A DNA stretch of 63,625 bases, filler included, from Octopus bimaculoides (GCF_001194135.2; 11 parts of 11 records of this genome joined end to end with filler, not necessarily neighbours in it), one strand, 5' to 3'. Positions 11,230 to 63,095 are shown, numbered from the whole stretch's first letter. Program-made: numbers and translations. Notes: generated by a model from the letters alone, not told the origin.

Positions 11230-11405
11230 CTGAACATGAAAAATAGCAATGACAAAACAACAAGTGGACGTACACATGGAATGTATCAGTTTAATGGCCA
11301 GGAAAGGTGGAAAGAAGGGTAGGATTTTAACGTTTCGAGCATAACTCTTCTTCAGAAAGGAAGACGGAAAACTTCAGAGAAGGGAAAAATTTCACGAACA
11401 ACAAA
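11230..11405 (-). mobile_element. Family F element (Penelope pLTR-like, hammerhead-like motif at 11329-11355)
   Basis: Minus strand CUUU-CUGAAGA-A-GAGU-UAU-GCUC-GAAA-CGUU-AAA; flanks homologous to 59495-59750. Confidence 0.6.
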
Positions 11406-26443: not shown

Positions 26444-27706
26444 GTTCTGTTCGATTTTACCTTTTTAAAAAATTGAATGAAATTTAATAGCATTTTAGAA
26501 TGTCTAATGGAATTAAAAATTATTTTTATGCATTTGTGTACATTTAAACTTATTAAATATTATTTTACTGAATAATAGAATTAGAATTTCTTTGATTAAA
26601 ACCCTTTCTAACATGGGAGTATCCAAAGAGCATTTGAGGCACATAATGCTTTATGAGTACAAAAAAGGAAACTCTGCAGCCAATGCGACTCGAAACATAC
26701 ACTCAGTTTATGAGAAAGAATGCTTGAATGAAAGAACATGCAGAAGATGGTTTGCAAAATTCAGAAGTGGAGATTTCAGCCTTGAAGATGATGATCGAAC
26801 AAGACGTCCAGTTGAGTTTGATGATAAGCTCCTTGAGGCATTACTTGAAGCAAATCCTGCATTATCATTTGAAGAAGTATAGTTCAAACCATACAATTGT
26901 TCATCGTCATCTTCAATAACTTTGAAAGTTTTCTAAACTTGGAAAATGAGTGCCTCATGAATTGTCCGAAAGCAACCGTAAATCCCGAGTTGACATCTGC
27001 TCTTCTCTCCATTCTCACGAACTCATTTCGCTCTTTTTGTATAGACTTGTGACTGGTGACGAAAAATGGATCTTCTATCGAAATGTTAAACGTCCTAAAC
27101 AGTGGCTTGGTAAAAAGGAAAAGGCTCAACCACAACCGAGAAGGGAATTTCATGGAATAAAGTTTCTTCTCTCTATCTGGTGGGATTGCAAAAGAGTAAT
27201 TCACTTTGAATTGTTACCGCCTAATGCAACAATCAATACTCAAGTCTACTGTCAGCAATTAGAGCGTTTGAACCAAGCTCTGAAGAAAAAATACCCTCTT
27301 TAGTGAATCGAAAAGTTGTGATGTTTTATCAGGACAATGCGTTACCCCACACTGTAAAGACCACATTACAGAAGATCGAAGAGCTTGGTTGGGAAAAAAC
27401 TCCCCATCCACCTTATTCTCCCAACCTTGCTCCTTCAGACTACCATTTGTTTCATAGTTTACAGAATCATTTGGGTGACATAACTTTCGCAAACCAGGAG
27501 GAGGTCGAAACTGACATTTCAGAGTTCTTCGCTTTGAAACTAAAAGAGTTTTACATTGATAGGATTAAAAAGCTTGTAAATAGATGGACCGAAGTCATAG
27601 ATAATGAGGGAAAGTACATTGATGATTAAATTTCAATTAAATATAATATTTGATCACTTGTTTTCTTTATTCAAAATTCGGACAGATCTTATGGGATGAT
27701 CTGATA
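26444..27706 (+). mobile_element. mariner DNA transposon; right TIR ends ...cggacagatcttatgggatgatctga-TA, left TIR truncated by the gap
   Basis: 26444 gttctgttcgatttt approximates the reverse complement of the inner right TIR; TA follows the right end; encloses a transposase pseudogene. Confidence 0.88.
26613..27629 (+). pseudogene. mariner DD34D transposase pseudogene (mellifera-subfamily-like)
   Basis: HTH region WFAKFRSGDFSL, (W>*)VPHEL, TGDEKW, QDNA-x34-D within HPPYSPNLAPSDYHLF; stops and frameshifts near 26880, 26948 and 27300. Confidence 0.92.
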
Positions 27707-27734: not shown

Positions 27735-27960
27735 CAGAATAAAGCAACAACGCGAGGACGTGGTACATGTAAAATATTAGCAGACGCTGAGTGAAGAAAG
27801 AAAGGTGGTTTAACGTTTCGAGCAAAGCTCTTCAGAAACACAGGAAAGTCCAGTAGAAAAGGGAGACGGAGGAAAAGAAATCACCAACGATTCACATGCG
27901 GTTACATTTTGAAATGACCGGATGGGAATGGGTGAAGAAAAGTTCTTTCTAAGGCAGGCG
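27735..27960 (-). mobile_element. Family F element (hammerhead-like motif at 27812-27835)
   Basis: Minus strand GUUU-CUGAA-GAGC-UUU-GCUC-GAAA-CGUU-AAAC; downstream homology to 59655-59750. Confidence 0.6.
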
Positions 27961-56051: not shown

Positions 56052-59000
56052 GCATTCGTACGTACGTTCCTACGTTCGTTCGATCGATCGTGCGTTCGTA
56101 CATGCTTACGTTCGTTATGTCACTCGTACGAACGTACGTTCCTTCGTACGTACATAAGTTCATTCGTTAATTCGTTCGTTTGCTTGCTCCTTCATTTCGT
56201 TCGTTCGTTCGTTCGTACATACGTTCATTCGCTCGTACGTAGATACTTTCGTTCGTTTATTCTTTCGTCCGTCCGTCCGTAATTTCGTTCGTTCTTTCGT
56301 CAGTACGTATTTACGTACGTTCGTTTCCTCGTTTGTTCGTTCGTACCTACGTACATACTTACATTCGTTCTTTCCTTCAATCGTTCTTTCTCTTGTTTGT
56401 TTGATCGTTCGTCCATTGGTCCGGTCGTACGTACGTACATTCGTTCGTTCTTTCGTTGGATCGTTCGTTCATTCGTACGTACGTATATACGTTGGTTCTT
56501 TGGACGTACGTTCGTTTGTTCCTTTGTGCATTCGTACGTACGTACGTTAGTTCATTCATTCGTTCGTCCGTCCGTTCGGTCGTTCGTTAGTTATTTAATT
56601 CGTACGAACGTACGTTCCTACGGTCGCACTTGCGTTCGTTTGTTCTTTCGATCGTAAATACGTAATTACGTACGTACCATATTTTGTTCGTTCGGACGTA
56701 CATACGTAAGTTCATTCTTTAGTTCGTTCGTTCTTACGTTCGCTTGCTCCTTCATTTCGTTCGTTCGTACATTCATTCTCTCGTTCGTAAGTACGGATGT
56801 ACGTAGATGCTTTCGTTCGTTTATTCTGGCGTCCGTCCGTCCGTTCGATCGTTCGTTCTTTCGTACGTACGTTCGTTTCCTCGTTCGTTCTTTCGTTCGT
56901 ATCTACGTACATTCGTTCGTTCGTTCCTTCAATCGTTCTTTCTTTTGTTTGTTCGATCGTTCGTTCTTACGCACGTTCGTTTGTTCTTTGGATCTTTCGT
57001 TCATTCGTACGTACGTAGGTACGTTCGTTCGTTCGTACTTACGTATGTTCATTCGTACGTACATACGTACGTATATACGTTGGTTCGTTTGAACGTACGT
57101 TCGTTTGTTCTTTTGTGCATTCGTACGTACGTTCCTACGTTCGTTCGATCGATCGTGCGTTCGTGCTTACGTACGTACGCACGTCCGTTCGTTATTTCAC
57201 TCGTACGAACGTACGTTCCTACGGTCGCAGTTGCGTTCGTTCGTCCGATCGTAAATACGTATGTACGATATTTCGTTCCTTCGTACGTACATACGTACGT
57301 ACGTTCATTCGTTTGCTTGCTCCTTCATTTTGTTCCTTCGTTCGTACTATCGTTCGTTCGTACGTAGATGCTTTCGTTCGTTTATTCTTTCGTCCGTCCG
57401 TACTTTCGTCAGTACGTACTTACGTACGTTTGTTTGTCTGATCTTCGTCCATTGGTCCGGTCGTACGTACTTTTTTGTGCATTCGTTCGTTCTTTCGTTG
57501 AATCGTTCGTTCATTCGTACGTACGTATATACGTTGGTTCTTTTGTACGTACGTTCGTTGTATCGTTCGTTTGTTCCTTTGTGCATTCGTACGTACGTAC
57601 GTTAGTTCATTCGTTCGTACGTGCGTTCGTTAGTTATTTAATTCGTACGAATGTACGTTCCTACGGTCGCACTTGCGTTCGTACGTACTTTCGTTTGTTC
57701 GTTCGATCGTAAATACGTAATTACATACGTACGATATTTCGTTCGTTCGTACGTACGTAAGTTCATTCGTTAGTTCGGTCGTACGTACGTTCGTACATAC
57801 CTATATACGTTCATTCGCTCGTTCGTACGTACGGAGTTACGTAGATGCTTTCGTTCGTCCGTCCCTACGCACGTACGTTCGTTCATTCGTACGTTCGTTC
57901 ATTCGTACGTACTTACTTACGTTCGTGTCCTCGTTTGTTCGTACCTACGTACATACTTACATTTGTTTGTTCCTTCAATCGTTCTATCTTTTGTTTGTTC
58001 GATCGTTCGTTCATTGGTCCGTTCGTACGTACGTACGTATGTTCGTTTGTTCTTTCGTCCATTCGTTCGTTCGTACGTACTTACATTCGTTCGTGCGTAC
58101 GTACTTACGTTCGTTCATTCGTACACACCTACGTATGTACTACTTTCGTTCCTTCGTTCGTAAGTACATATGTAAGTACGTTCGTTCGTTCGTTTACTCG
58201 TTCGTTCCTTCGTTCTTTCATTCGTACCTACATACATACTTGCATTCGTTCGTTCTTTCTTTTGTTTGTTCGATCGTTCGTTCATACGTACGTTCGTTAG
58301 TTTTTACGTACGTTTGTTCGTTCTTACGTTCGCTTGCTCCTTCATTTCGTTCGTTCGTACTTACGTACATACGTTCATTCGCTCGTACGTACGGAGGTGC
58401 GTAGATACTTTCGTTCGTTTATTCTTTCGTCCGTCCGTCCGTACGCACGTTCGTTCTATCGAACGTACGTTCGTACCTACGTACATTCGTTCGTTCCTTC
58501 AATCGTTCTTTCTTTTGTTTGTTCGATTTTTCGTTCATGGGTCCGTTCGTTCTTTCGTGCGTTCGTACTTACGTCCGTTCGTTTGTTAGTTTGTTCGTTC
58601 GTTCGTACTTACGTTCCTACGTTCATTCGTACGTACTTACGTACGTACATACATATGTACGTTCGTTCATACCTACGTATGTACTACGTTCGTTCGATCG
58701 TACGTATGTACGTACGTTCGTTTGTTATTTCGTTCGATCGTACATACGTAATAACGTAGGTACGTTCTTTCCTTCGTTCGTACGTACGTTTGTGCATTCG
58801 TTAGTTCGTTCGTACCTTCGTAACTACATACGTTCATTCGTTCGTACGTTCGCTCGTAAGGACGATCGTTGGTTCGCACATTCGCAGGTACGTTCATTCG
58901 CTCGTTCGTTCGTACGTACGGACGTATGTAGATGCTTTCGTTCGTTTATTCGTTCGTCCGTGCATACGTTCGTTCGTTCTTTCGAACCTACGTACTTTTG

Positions 59001-59340
59001 TACTTTCGTTCGTTCTTTCATTCGTACCTACGTACATACTTGCGTTCGTTCGTTCTTTCATTCGTTCTTTCTTTTGTTTGTGCGTTCATTCGTTCATTGG
59101 TTCGTTCCTACATACGTACTAACATTCGTTCGTTAGTCATTCATTCGTTCTTACGTACATTCGTTCGTTCTTACGTTCGCCCTTTCGTACGGACGTACTT
59201 CCGAACGTACATCCATACGTACGTTTGCTCGCTCTTTCTTTCGTGCCTACGTACGTACGTTCGTTCATTCGCACGTATGTACGTTCGTTTGATCATTCGT
59301 ACGTACGTACTTAGGTACGTACGTACATGCGTTCGTTCGA
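56052..59340. repeat. CpG-rich complex satellite built from (TTCG)n/(TACG)n with ~480-565 bp higher-order units
   Basis: Marker gtagat(g/a)ctttcgttcgt recurs at ~56239, 56803, 57364, 57841, 58401 and 58928. Confidence 0.9.
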
Positions 59341-59494
59341 GCTTATAAATAAATAAATAAATAAATAAATATATAAATAAATAAATATATATATNNNNNN
59401 NNNNNNNNNNNNNNNNNNNNNNNNNNNNNNNNNNNNNNTTAATTAATTAANNNNNNNNNNNNNNNNNNNNNNNNNNNNNNNNNNNNNNNNNNNN

Positions 59495-59750
59495 TTAGCT
59501 CTCCTGAAATAAGAATTTCTAACTTCCGGTCAGCTATTGTTATGATCGGCCATTATTATGATTGACCGTTGACTGAACACTATTCAATTTTTTTCTCCGT
59601 GTTTTTCTCCTTGTCTCCGTATTCTTTCTGTTGAAGAGCGTAGCTCGAAACGTCAAAGACTTTCCGTATTCCCGAGCGTCATACTAATATATACTTTTGT
59701 TATTTACACCACCTGTCCTCGTCTGTTGTTATTATTTGTATATTCTCCCA
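59495..59750 (+). mobile_element. Family F element (hammerhead-like motif at 59623-59659)
   Basis: UCUUU-CUGUUGA-A-GAGC-GUA-GCUC-GAAA-CGUC-AAAGA; colinear homology with 62905-63095. Confidence 0.7.
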
Positions 59751-59785
<35 letters not shown>

Positions 59786-59789
59786 ATAT

Positions 59790-59995
59790 GTTTGCGTGTC
59801 TGTGTTTGTCCCCCCCAACCTCACTTGACAACCGATGATGGTATGTTTACGTCCCATAATGTAGCGGTTCAGCAAAAGAGACCGATAGAATAAGTACTAG
59901 GCTTACAAAGAATAAGTCCTGGGGTCGATTTGCTCGACTAAAGGCGATGCTCCAGCATGGTCACAGTCAAATGACTGAAACAAGTAAAAGAGTAA
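59790..59995 (+). mobile_element. SINE family C 3' tail
   Basis: Matches 51458-51620. Confidence 0.85.
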
Positions 59996-60377
59996 TCTGA
60001 ATAAAAACAGCAGTGACCTGGGCAACGGTGGGTAATTCAGCGAGTTTATTCATAAAGGTCTTGATGAAATGACTATGAATTTTTATTGTGAATGTTATGT
60101 AGTCATTGTTCATATTCATATTTTCCAACTTGTTAAATGATTCATTACCCATATGTTGCTGAAATAGTTGTAACCAATGAATAAAAGTGATACCAGTACC
60201 TTGATTCTCCATTTGTTATTTTATACTCTGTGACCAAACGAAACTTCCCAGATTTCCAGTTTGTGTGAACCACATACTTCCACTGAAAGATTGTTCCTCT
60301 CTATACATTCTGTTAGGAAGGATTTGAAGAGCTGACTGAGATAACCACTTGAATTTTTAGTTTCCCTTTCAAGGCCA

Positions 60378-60470
60378 CTGCTCTATTGACTCCTCCGCTG
60401 CTCTATTGACTCCTCTGCTGCTCTATTGACTCCTCTGCTGCTCTATTGACTCCTCCGCTGCTCTATTGAC
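60378..60470. repeat. 20-bp minisatellite (ctgctctattgactcctcYg) x ~4.6
   Basis: Direct tandem units. Confidence 0.95.
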
Positions 60471-61685
60471 CCAAGTACCAGTTGCCAAGGATTACCCAAA
60501 GTGGAGGCATGTTATCATCAAGAGAAACAAACCAGACAGAAAATAACAGACGTCAAGGGGCGGAGATCTGACATTGAACATGCAAAGAGCAACTCACACT
60601 TCCTCATTCCCCACAAACCCTCTCCGGTAATAAATCCTCCCTCTAGCTCTTCTATACCACCCTTGGCCTGAACAGCCACAAAGTTGCTAAATTAACTCAA
60701 AGCCCGAGAGTTTTGTGTCTGATATATGCTATGAACAAACTGTATGATGATGATAATATGTATATAAGATGCAAGACAAATTTTAAAAAAAAGCTAAGTA
60801 ATATTATTCTACTTCTAAGTAGGTATTTATAAAATGTATTTATAAATATTTAGAATCATAACTGTAAATATTTTAAAAAAAGGCTTTAATTTATAAATTC
60901 TCAGAAAGTTTTCATATCAGACCTTCTGCTCACTGTTATCAATTGGTATGATTCAAAACAGAGCTGAATACATTATGGCTTAGGTAATCTGCATAAATGA
61001 AGTGCAAATGAACTAAGTGAAATAACTCAGAGTGAAACATAGAAACATCTATCCACAGCTGTCCTCTTGTCTTCAGACAATCAGATTGTCTTTTCCTTAA
61101 TGGCAGAGGAATTTTGGAGAATTTTTGATTTGTGAGTTTATCTTCCCTTCTCATTTAGAATTGGTACTAATTGCCACTATAGTGACTGGTCTGGCATTTC
61201 TGAAAGCAACAGAAATAATTTCAATAAATCAAGGATTTTTCTTGTGTGTTATTTAATGTGGCCTTATTGTTTTGTATACATACATTTCATCATCATCATC
61301 GTCACCACCACCNNNNNNNNNNNNNNNNNNNNNNNNNNNNNNNNNNNNNNNNNNNNTTAATTAATTAANNNNNNNNNNNNNNNNNNNNNNNNNNNNNNNN
61401 NNNNNNNNNNNNTATATATATATATATATATATATATATCATGATAGAAACTCTCATATTGGCTTTTGGTGCAAAATGCAGTTTTGTTTATATTGTTAAC
61501 AGGGAGATAAATCGCCGTCATATCCAGCGCCGAGACCACCGAATCACCTGATTTCGACCTTCCTTGGTCTTGTCAATGATGGACGCTCGACTGCTAGCTA
61601 TAGCAGCATCTCATCTTTCCGCCAGCGATATTTAGAAAAACAGTGCTAAAACAGGCGCTGGTGTTACAGTTAGCCAATGTTAAAA

Positions 61686-61910
61686 ATATATATTAGCGAC
61701 AGAAGCAGTATCAATACCGAGAGGTAATATTTATCCCCAATTAAACATGAAAGTTCTGTTAGAACGAACTGTGGTAGATACCATATATAACATGAAAGTT
61801 TCCCTCGTGGTATCTACCACAGTATAGTTTGTTTTAGAATGACATCCACGTTTAACTGGGGATAAATATTGCTTCTCGATATTAATATTGCCTCCGTCGC
61901 TAATATATAT
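61686..61910. repeat. Nested fold-back element (64-bp outer arms, 15-bp perfect inner arms), MITE-like
   Basis: Arms 61686-61749 and 61847-61910 (9 transition mismatches, no indels); inner arms 61769-61783 and 61808-61822. Confidence 0.88.
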
Positions 61911-61952
61911 ATATATATATATAAACAAATTTAAGGGATCAGCAACAGGTTG

Positions 61953-62043
61953 CTTCACCACATACCGAAGTTCAGAAATAGCAGCTAAAATGATGAGACT
62001 CCAACAGATAGCTGCTATTTCTGAACTTCGGTATGTGGTGAAG
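61953..62043. repeat. Perfect 35-bp inverted repeat with 21-nt loop, abutting a gap
   Basis: cttcaccacataccgaagttcagaaatagcagcta and its exact reverse complement at 62009-62043. Confidence 0.85.
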
Positions 62044-62904
62044 NNNNNNNNNNNNNNNNNNNNNNNNNNNNNNNNNNNNNNNNNNNNNNNNNNNNNNNNN
62101 NNNNNNNNNNNNNNNNNNNNNNNNNNNNNNNNNNNNNNNNNNNNNNNNNNNNNNNNNNNNNNNNNNNNNNNNNNNNNNNNNNNNNNNNNNNNNNNNNNNN
62201 NNNNNNNNNNNNNNNNNNNNNNNNNNNNNNNNNNNNNNNNNNNNNNNNNNNNNNNNNNNNNNNNNNNNNNNNNNNNNNNNNNNNNNNNNNNNNNNNNNNN
62301 NNNNNNNNNNNNNNNNNNNNNNNNNNNNNNNNNNNNNNNNNNNNNNNNNNNNNNNNNNNNNNNNNNNNNNNNNNNNNNNNNNNNNNNNNNNNNNNNNNNN
62401 NNNNNNNNNNNNNNNNNNNNNNNNNNNNNNNNNNNNNNNNNNNNNNNNNNNNNNNNNNNNNNNNNNNNNNNNNNNNNNNNNNNNNNNNNNNNNNNNNNNN
62501 NNNNNNNNNNNNNNNNNNNNNNNNNNNNNNNNNNNNNNNNNNNNNNNNNNNNNNNNNNNNNNNNNNNNNNNNNNNNNNNNNNNNNNNNNNNNNNNNNNNN
62601 NNNNNNNNNNNNNNNNNNNNNNNNNNNNNNNNNNNNNNNNNNNNNNNNNNNNNNNNNNNNNNNNNNNNNNNNNNNNNNNNNNNNNNNNNNNNNNNNNNNN
62701 NNNNNNNNNNNNNNNNNNNNNNNNNNNNNNNNNNNNNNNNNNNNNNNNNNNNNNNNNNNNNNNNNNNNNNNNNNNNNNNNNNNNNNNNNNNNNNNNNNNN
62801 NNNNNNNNNNNNNNNNNNNNNNNNNNNNNNNNNNNNNNNNNNNNNNNNNNNNNNNNNNNNNNNNNNNNNNNNNNNNNNNNNNNNNNNNATATATATATAT
62901 ATAT

Positions 62905-63095
62905 ATCGCCCTGATAGATCGCTGACCACTACACACATTTTTTTCTCGCCTTGTTTCTTTCTGTGTTCCTTTCTGTGGAAGAGCGTAGGCTCGAAACGTT
63001 AAAGACATTTTCAATTCCCGAGCGTTATACTAATACATCTGTTTGTTTTCTACACCATCTGTGTTCGTCTGTTGCTTTTTGTGAATTCTCCCTAT
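62905..63095 (+). mobile_element. Family F element (hammerhead-like motif at 62969-63004), flanked by (TA)n on both sides
   Basis: CUUU-CUGUGGA-A-GAGC-GUAG-GCUC-GAAA-CGUU-AAAG. Confidence 0.7.

What the first reader, a model, noticed from the sequence alone, without database searches (positions are those of the whole stretch)
59495..63095. Dispersed non-coding family F carries a minimal hammerhead-like fold with covarying stems (retrozyme-like or solo pLTR element)
Seen: four homologous ~200-250 nt elements (11230-11405 -, 27735-27960 -, 59495-59750 +, 62905-63095 +) plus a related motif at 48971 share CUG(A/U)N(G/A)A-A-stem II-GAAA-CG-U(C/U). Stem II varies compatibly (GAGC/GCUC, GAGU/GCUC, AGAC/GUCU) and stem I pairs differently in each copy (UCUUU/AAAGA, CUUU/AAAG, GUUU/AAAC, UUU/AAA). 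Stem III is only the palindrome A-CG-U, which would need dimerisation. No ORF is attached. Inference: a non-autonomous ribozyme-bearing retroelement mobilised by Penelope-like RT/EN; most copies here have core lesions (A6>U, G8>A, a deletion).
Basis: partly seen in the sequence, partly recalled or inferred. Interest (0 to 1): 0.75.

Follow-up and report, generated by a model that had tools for sequence, protein, structure and literature searches.

The report
Penelope transposon tails, variant hammerhead core
These repeats are the cut-off tail ends of protein-coding Penelope-type jumping genes and carry a known minimal hammerhead ribozyme motif, but in one lineage of thousands of copies a normally fixed core base has changed, so the motif there likely cuts poorly or not at all (untested).

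Summary
The five motifs are real, but they are not a non-coding retrozyme. They are 3' ends (pseudo-LTRs) of endonuclease-bearing Penelope-like retroelements (PLEs), Neptune-like by motif, inserted at (TA)n with a fixed 3' end and variable 5' truncation. Gap-free loci read RT, GIY-YIG endonuclease, UTR, hammerhead (L172, L180; endonuclease to hammerhead in L143, L263). Others show the hammerhead upstream of the ORF start, or on both sides (L295, L306). The motif fits the published minimal PLE hammerhead. The five copies come from five subfamilies. The deletion and G8>A are minority states, but A6>U is not a lesion: the genome holds 5,400 exact U6 matches against 15 with A6 in the same context, including a subfamily of copies 99% alike. 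The rest of the fold stays conserved among U6 subfamilies. U6 is absent from the two PLE hammerhead tables I read; the main variant survey (Lunse 2017) was not available. Cleavage is untested; RNA reads show transcription but no cut site or circle. This scan reported PLE hammerhead tails before on other DNA of this and another genome. Known kind, one unusual core variant.

The parts
59495..59749 (+). 3' end (pLTR) of the youngest U6 PLE subfamily; 5' side cut by an assembly gap; fixed 3' end followed by (TA)n
   Evidence: (3' end 95 nt after H17 and followed by ATATA in 30 of 30 loci)
59623..59659 (+). Minimal type I hammerhead-like motif with U6: stem I 59623-27/59655-59, core 59628-34, extra A 59635, stem II 59636-46, GAAA 59647-50, CG palindrome, predicted cut after 59654
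   Evidence: published consensus
62905..63092 (+). 5'-truncated 3' end of an older U6 subfamily between (TA)n runs; motif 62973-63000 (CUGUGGA core)
   Evidence: 83% to the 3' end of RT-EN locus L172
27704..28464 (-). 760-nt 3' UTR plus pLTR of an A6 subfamily; motif 27835-27812 with a 3-nt deletion seen in 2 of 30 loci
   Evidence: 77% over 807 columns to the UTR of endonuclease-bearing locus L143
11233..11433 (-). 5'-truncated 3' end of an old A6 subfamily; intact core at 11355-11329
   Evidence: no ORF link found for this subfamily, only 69% similarity of its upstream part to the 27735 subfamily
48971..49068 (+). 3' end of a more distant A6 subfamily (stem II GGAC/GUCC majority); this copy has G8>A
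   Evidence: weak endonuclease match 1163 nt upstream in L245 (E 7e-4)

Best explanation
[quoted passage not shown] Shown: element order 5' UTR, ORF (RT then endonuclease), C-rich 3' UTR, motif, fixed end, (TA)n; partial tandems with a motif upstream of the next ORF; variable 5' truncation; transcription of the 3' end. Inferred from known PLE biology: the protein nicks (TA)n and copies the RNA from the fixed 3' end; a short TA run that follows the pLTR in tandem copies could anneal to the nicked target. Inferred from Cervera 2014: two motifs in a tandem transcript swap their ACGU palindromes and cut slowly, giving unit RNA that may be circularised; because the fixed end lies 95 nt downstream of the cut, the template is either a re-ligated circle or an RNA left uncut at its 3' motif. 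For the A6 subfamilies slow dimer cleavage is likely. For the U6 lineage I predict weak or no cleavage in Mg2+, with the fold kept for residual activity or as a signal for the element's protein; either way U6 did not block amplification.
For: Gap-free RT, endonuclease, UTR, motif, (TA)n in L172 (tblastn to P0007 residues 142-754, motif 578 nt after) and L180 (537 nt). Homologues of the L172 RT carry RVT_1 and, in full-length ones, GIY-YIG PF01541 (name of PF01541 recalled). 59495 subfamily: endonuclease pieces in L104, L094, L098 are 98.7-98.8% alike and lie upstream of a gap plus the 59495-type UTR; with that piece as query, 4 of 30 loci (L252, L255, L266, L271) show a 97-99% endonuclease, a gap of about 1 kb and a 95-100% 59495-type end, and L263 links them without a gap at 87%; L083 joins an RT piece to the end. 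27735 subfamily: L143 endonuclease to motif, 985 nt, no gap. Motif upstream of the ORF start in 5 of 30 N-terminus loci, on both sides in L306 (168-nt direct repeat, 92%). Fixed 3' end in 30 of 30; 5' end at (TA)n at 8 different distances in 8 of 30 and at gaps in 22. Motif matches the published consensus CUGANGAH G..C GAAAN palindrome NU H (PMC4209133 supplement). Linker CSRPRCRTC and C-terminal endonuclease fit Neptune.
Against: No intact full-length ORF was found; all long copies seen carry stops or frameshifts and young copies are broken by gaps. The ORF link for the 11230 subfamily was not found in 25 loci with 1.5-kb flanks, and that for 48971 rests on one weak match. Pfam scans of the broken L172 pieces gave only a sub-threshold RVT_1 hit (E 0.051). 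Some copies join the ORF start or an RT piece directly to the 3' end, two of them at one junction (L290, L293), so non-autonomous deletion derivatives may exist. Monomer folds are no more stable than shuffles (z 0.12 to -1.46). U6 breaks the consensus, and changes at position 6 lower activity (PMC3088659, PMC7151607).
Confidence: 0.9

Rival explanations
1. F is a non-autonomous non-LTR retrozyme: a short non-coding unit that is self-cleaved, circularised and mobilised in trans by a PLE.
For: Most copies are short and lack an ORF; 3 of the first 100 listed U6 matches have a second motif within 200 nt; a few RNA reads join the 3' end back to 59561; retrozymes derive from pLTRs (bioRxiv 10.64898/2026.07.22.740005).
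Against: No fixed 5' end; continuous sequence into endonuclease and RT. Of 115 loci scanned, 105 hold one motif, 7 hold two (second motif differs in loop or core, or lies on the other strand) and 3 none. Of the three close pairs two flank 40-N and 10-N gaps (probable assembly duplicates) and one is a 122-nt duplication; the RNA joint 59681 to 59561 equals that genomic duplication, and the joint 59748 to 59561 has a TA run in it.
Confidence: 0.04
2. Part of the copies belong to non-autonomous deletion derivatives (5' UTR, ORF stub, pLTR) that move in trans with the autonomous PLE.
For: 5 of 30 N-terminus loci have the motif 218-278 nt after the query start; L290 and L293 share a junction; L120, L083, L168, L175 join RT pieces to the end.
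Against: Most junctions differ, as expected for template jumps during single insertions; the query itself came from such a copy, which enriches them. It does not explain the window copies, which lack ORF stubs.
Confidence: 0.2
3. In the U6 lineage the hammerhead is catalytically dead and the sequence is kept only because it overlaps a protein-binding, promoter or priming signal of the element.
For: U6 in 5,400 against A6 in 15 matches; a small subfamily also has U4>A (4 copies in a cluster); no read ends pile up at 59654; Naiad PLEs spread without a canonical hammerhead (PMC8557442).
Against: Among four U6 subfamily majorities only 0-1 of 27 constrained motif columns vary against 34-38 of 119 flank columns, and the changes fall on free positions N7, loop II and H17; natural A6C ribozymes keep low but detectable activity, higher with Mn2+. 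Standard cDNA libraries would hide cut ends.
Confidence: 0.35

Closest known systems
Minimal type I hammerheads in pLTRs of metazoan PLEs (Cervera and de la Pena 2014, PMC4209133; parts 1-2 of 4 of the text and part 2 of 3 of supplement 2 read)
   Same: CUGANGA core, extra base between 9 and 10.1, G10.1-C11.1, GAAA-CG-U-H with a CG palindrome, short helix I, U-rich 5' flank, thousands of solo copies with few in full PLEs.
   Different: Two of five subfamilies have U at position 6; none of the rows in the supplement part read has this. Helix II is 4 bp rather than the 7-8 bp described for Schistosoma. No cephalopod row in the part read.
Neptune clade of EN+ Penelope-like elements (Craig et al. 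2021, PMC8557442; passages and supplement parts 2 and 54 read)
   Same: RT then C-terminal GIY-YIG, CX2-5CxxC linker with a long spacer, partial tandems forming pLTRs, (TA)n targets, hammerhead near the 3' end.
   Different: Clade assigned by motif comparison only, no tree; very C-rich coding strand and long low-complexity UTRs; no intact ORF recovered.
Metazoan non-LTR retrozymes (Cervera and de la Pena 2020, PMC7229834, passages; Li et al. 2026 bioRxiv 10.64898/2026.07.22.740005, part 1 of 5 and passages)
   Same: Type I hammerhead, dispersed copies, relation to PLE pLTRs.
   Different: No tandem 150-450-nt monomers, no canonical helix III, no fixed 5' end, and continuity with an RT-EN ORF.
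Natural position-6 hammerhead variant A6C of phage Bcep176 (PMC3088659 section 8; PMC7151607 part 1 of 4)
   Same: Substitution of the conserved A6.
   Different: A6C is a single phage ribozyme with low Mg2+ and good Mn2+ activity; here U6 is fixed in thousands of retroelement copies and its activity is unmeasured.

Membership tests
EN+ Penelope-like element (Neptune-like) | ORF with RT followed by C-terminal GIY-YIG endonuclease | tested here: met
   L172, L180 colinear with P0007 residues 142-754 and 355-753; homologues with PF00078 and PF01541
EN+ Penelope-like element (Neptune-like) | [quoted passage not shown] | tested here: met
   CSRPRCRTC, then CTSTNIIYCLSCSLCQSLYIGQT..EH..RH against the description
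EN+ Penelope-like element (Neptune-like) | Partial tandem arrangement forming pLTRs | tested here: met
   L295 (ORF end, UTR, motif, 5' UTR, ATG), L306 (motif on both sides), L288, L297, L299; these are 62905-type or related U6 copies
EN+ Penelope-like element (Neptune-like) | Insertion at (TA)n with fixed 3' end and variable 5' truncation | tested here: met
   30 of 30 loci end at one base followed by ATATA; 8 of 30 have 5' ends at TA at 131-332 nt, 22 at gaps
EN+ Penelope-like element (Neptune-like) | Intact autonomous copy | tested here: inconclusive
   none found; young copies are split by gaps
EN+ Penelope-like element (Neptune-like) | RT phylogeny with Neptune references | not tested
   no reference set was loaded; motif comparison by eye with supplement alignment
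Minimal PLE hammerhead (Cervera 2014 consensus) | Core CUGANGA with A6 | tested here: not met
   not met in the 59495 and 62905 subfamilies (U6 in 30 of 30 and 30 of 30); met in the other three (A6 in 28 of 30, 23 of 23 scored, 19 of 19 scored)
Minimal PLE hammerhead (Cervera 2014 consensus) | Extra base between 9 and 10.1, G10.1-C11.1 pair, helix II | tested here: met
   helix II 93.9% of cells paired, double changes at two pairs between families
Minimal PLE hammerhead (Cervera 2014 consensus) | GAAA, palindromic 15.2-16.2, U16.1, H17 and short helix I | tested here: met
   GAAA-CG-U-(C/U/A) majority in all five subfamilies; helix I 3-5 bp
Minimal PLE hammerhead (Cervera 2014 consensus) | Self-cleavage as a dimer | not testable with these tools
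   needs in vitro assay; RNA reads list no end pile-up at 59654, which standard libraries would not show
Non-LTR retrozyme | Tandem 150-450-nt monomers each with a hammerhead | tested here: not met
Non-LTR retrozyme | No coding sequence | tested here: not met
Non-LTR retrozyme | Abundant circular monomer RNA | tested here: inconclusive
   three RNA-Seq runs of one study show no seamless back-joint; library type unsuited to small circles

The most novel reading that the evidence does not exclude
The most recently amplified Penelope-like lineage of this genome moves with a hammerhead that lost the conserved A6 yet keeps every other constrained position across subfamilies about 20-25% apart. Either U6 is a working core variant (dimer-, protein- or Mn2+-assisted), or the fold has been kept as a non-catalytic signal for the element's RT-endonuclease. 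U6 and A6 sister subfamilies in one genome, plus 15 natural A6 copies in U6 context, form a ready-made test of what PLE hammerheads are for.
Probability: 0.4. Interest if true: 0.55.

Novelty: new variant of a known kind. Interest (0 to 1): 0.3.

Why it matters
As proposed (a new retrozyme) it does not hold: solo minimal hammerheads from truncated PLEs are described in many animals, and a hammerhead in an octopus Hydra-clade PLE is already tabulated (PMC8557442 File S2). What remains of value is the fixed A6>U core. The role of PLE hammerheads in vivo is stated to be unclear (PMC8557442; PMC7761336). A lineage that expanded to thousands of copies with a changed catalytic core but a conserved fold lets one ask directly whether cleavage is needed for PLE transposition. 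It also shows that CUGANGA descriptors miss thousands of such motifs in this genome.

Tried and rejected
Rfam scan of the window: 333 weak matches, the 150 listed hold no hammerhead family and are mostly microsatellite-driven miRNA models; 183 were not shown. Monomer folding: not better than shuffles. Idea that U6 inactivates by misfolding: rejected, natural A6 copies (L320, L319) misfold as much and co-folding did not give the hammerhead dimer for any subfamily. Walking upstream by DNA search alone ended in low-complexity UTR and gaps. The broken PLE at window 22337-24960 as the parent of F: rejected, no significant similarity to the F-linked protein family and a different motif. The ORF-like stretch 48661-48954 upstream of the 48971 motif: no Pfam match, not pursued. 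Close motif pairs as retrozyme dimers: rejected. No run holding the sequence is on record as RNA (no RNA holder listed). Laying reads on an old tandem copy gave high depth on the pLTR and 0-12 on the 5' UTR, but the copy is too diverged to read much into this. Covariation counts (56 doubly changed cells, 0 of 500 shuffles; 41 hand-picked of 132 scored copies) are inflated by relatedness; only about three or four independent family-level changes stand behind them, and the two measures that count pairs or types did not beat shuffles (241 and 291 of 500). The conservation test selected copies by a pattern allowing 4 mismatches in the motif and left out 29-42 of 141 copies outside clusters of three or more, so its P values (0.003, 1e-4) are optimistic. 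Literature searches for U6: searches gave no report of A6U in a natural hammerhead (listings only); Lunse et al. 2017 (PMC5785218), the largest survey of PLE hammerhead variants, is not held, and supplement file 1 of PMC4209133 could not be searched, so absence from print is not established.

Full report
Observation. The window is a pack of 11 stretches of an AT-rich, microsatellite-rich genome of 2.34 Gb; that it is an octopus is my inference from size and composition and from earlier notes, not tested. A descriptor with stem I, stem II and a palindromic stem III finds the 59628, 62973 and 11355 motifs and nothing in 20 shuffled versions of the window. The motif region is more alike between copies (0.68-0.89) than the 60-nt flanks (0.43-0.85) in all 10 pairs.

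Five subfamilies. Each copy, used as query in the own genome, pulled a different set: 1176 candidates with the top 40 at 99-100% (59495), 2046 with 91-96% (62905), 3848 with 83-91% (27735), 442 with 74-86% (11230) and 29 with 73-89% (48971); identities exclude the self match, and only the best 40 are scored. Majority cores over the fetched loci: CUGUUGA in 30 of 30; CUGUGGA in 27 of 30 with U6 in all 30; CUGAAGA in 21 of 30; CUGACGA or CUGAUGA in 17 of 23 scored (25 fetched); CUGAUGA in 8 of 19 scored (25 fetched; G8 in 14, A8 in 5). The 3-nt deletion is in 2 of 30 loci. Stem II is GAGC/GCUC in four subfamilies and GGAC/GUCC in the fifth; stem I is UUU/AAA with differing outer pairs. On 41 hand-picked copies helix II is 93.9% paired, with 13 and 15 doubly changed cells at two pairs, but these stem from one split between families.

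Anatomy. All 30 loci of the 59495 subfamily end at the same base, 95 nt after H17, and continue with ATATA. Their 5' ends vary: 8 stop at (TA)n at 131-332 nt from C3, 22 run into assembly gaps, including the window copy itself. Upstream lies a long C-rich low-complexity UTR. L120 joined an RT piece to the 62905-type end. With that piece as query, L172 and L180 show RT, endonuclease, UTR, motif and (TA)n without a gap. Homologues are 700-950-residue proteins with RVT_1 and, in several, PF01541 (GIY-YIG, name recalled). For the young 59495 subfamily, three loci carry endonuclease sequence 98.7-98.8% alike upstream of a gap and the subfamily's UTR; among 30 loci fetched with that sequence, L252, L255, L266 and L271 repeat the arrangement and L263 does so without a gap at lower identity. 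L143 links the endonuclease to the 27735-type motif without a gap, and the window's 27735 copy matches that UTR over 760 nt. L245 gives a weak link for 48971; none was found for 11230, whose upstream part resembles that of the 27735 subfamily. With the ORF start as query, 5 of 30 loci have the motif 803-1360 nt upstream in the same direction; L295 reads ORF end, UTR, motif, short TA run, 5' UTR, ATG, and L306 has the motif on both sides. This is the partial-tandem pLTR layout of PLEs. The linker CSRPRCRTC before a C-terminal endonuclease fits Neptune as described by Craig et al. (passages; supplement alignment); no tree was built.

Not a retrozyme. Retrozymes are tandem 150-450-nt non-coding units (PMC7229834, passages). 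Of 115 loci 105 hold one motif and 7 hold two, the second differing in sequence or strand. Three close pairs among the first 100 listed genome matches were fetched: two flank short N gaps and one is a 122-nt duplication. A minority of deletion derivatives may be non-autonomous.

The U6 core. An exact pattern in the shared context gave 2637 + 2763 = 5,400 matches with U6 and 9 + 6 = 15 with A6; the reversed control gave 0. Of the 12 A6 copies fetched, most match the U6 subfamilies best and one (L312) the 11230 subfamily, so most look like back-mutations. Among 26 motifs found in 90 loci fetched by ORF queries, which are not biased for the core, 25 have U6, 1 has C6 and none A6. Among four U6 subfamily majorities 0-1 of 27 constrained columns differ against 34-38 of 119 flank columns (caveats under Tried and rejected). 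One small cluster also has U4>A. The published PLE consensus is CUGANGAH and no row of the supplement part read has U6 (PMC4209133); the same holds for the Chlamys and Hydra table (PMC8557442 File S2). Natural A6C has low activity in Mg2+ and good activity in Mn2+ (PMC3088659 section 8; PMC7151607 part 1). Lunse et al. 2017 could not be read.

Expression. Three RNA-Seq runs of one study (same species label) laid 1,618-2,395 reads on the 249-nt end from about 6% of each run, equally in both directions, with many variant letters, none listed at position 6 and no pile-up of ends at the predicted cut. This shows transcription of many copies, probably inside host transcripts (inference), and says nothing on cleavage.

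Mechanism. Shown: architecture, target, truncation pattern, tandem layout, copy numbers, transcription. Inferred: nicking of (TA)n and reverse transcription from the fixed end; slow dimer cleavage for A6 motifs, as measured for a Schistosoma motif (PMC4209133). Open: whether U6 motifs cut. My estimate is 0.9 that F is the pLTR of autonomous PLEs, and about 0.35 that the U6 motif is catalytically dead.

Verdict. Known kind of element and ribozyme; the scan's earlier notes reached the same class on other DNA. The fixed U6 core is the only part that may be new. Interest 0.3.

Noticed in passing
No Pfam match.
   Followed up: partly
window 40073-40372 +: Short piece like a Hydra-type endonuclease C-terminus (CQLCLLE..N..CGH), after a (TA)n run; matches a piece in L025.
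   Followed up: partly
window 26517-27700 +: Mos1/mariner-like transposase remnant (HTH_48 E 1.9e-23, DDE_3 weak) that abuts the 3' end of the 27735 copy at a TA.
   Followed up: partly
window 42476-42505 -: A further CUGACGA..GAAACG match next to a (TA)n run, without the U-H end; remnant or chance.
   Followed up: no
L264, L268, L277, L299, L132, L153: A small U6 subfamily with a second core change, U4>A (CAGUUGA).
   Followed up: partly
L022:1629-2000, L153, L202: 3' ends of different subfamilies stacked head to tail 230-380 nt apart through shared (TA)n targets; both carry the ACGU palindrome and could in principle form mixed dimers.
   Followed up: no
L295, L297, L299, L117: In tandem copies the fixed 3' end is followed by a short TA-rich run and then the 5' UTR; this run could serve as the annealing site for a nicked (TA)n target.
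   Followed up: partly
window 56052-59394: A 3.3-kb stretch made of degenerate short repeats rich in CGTA/TTCG units, GC 0.43, a whole small contig (C10482).
   Followed up: no
window 60380-60470 +: Four to five head-to-tail copies of a 20-nt unit.
   Followed up: no
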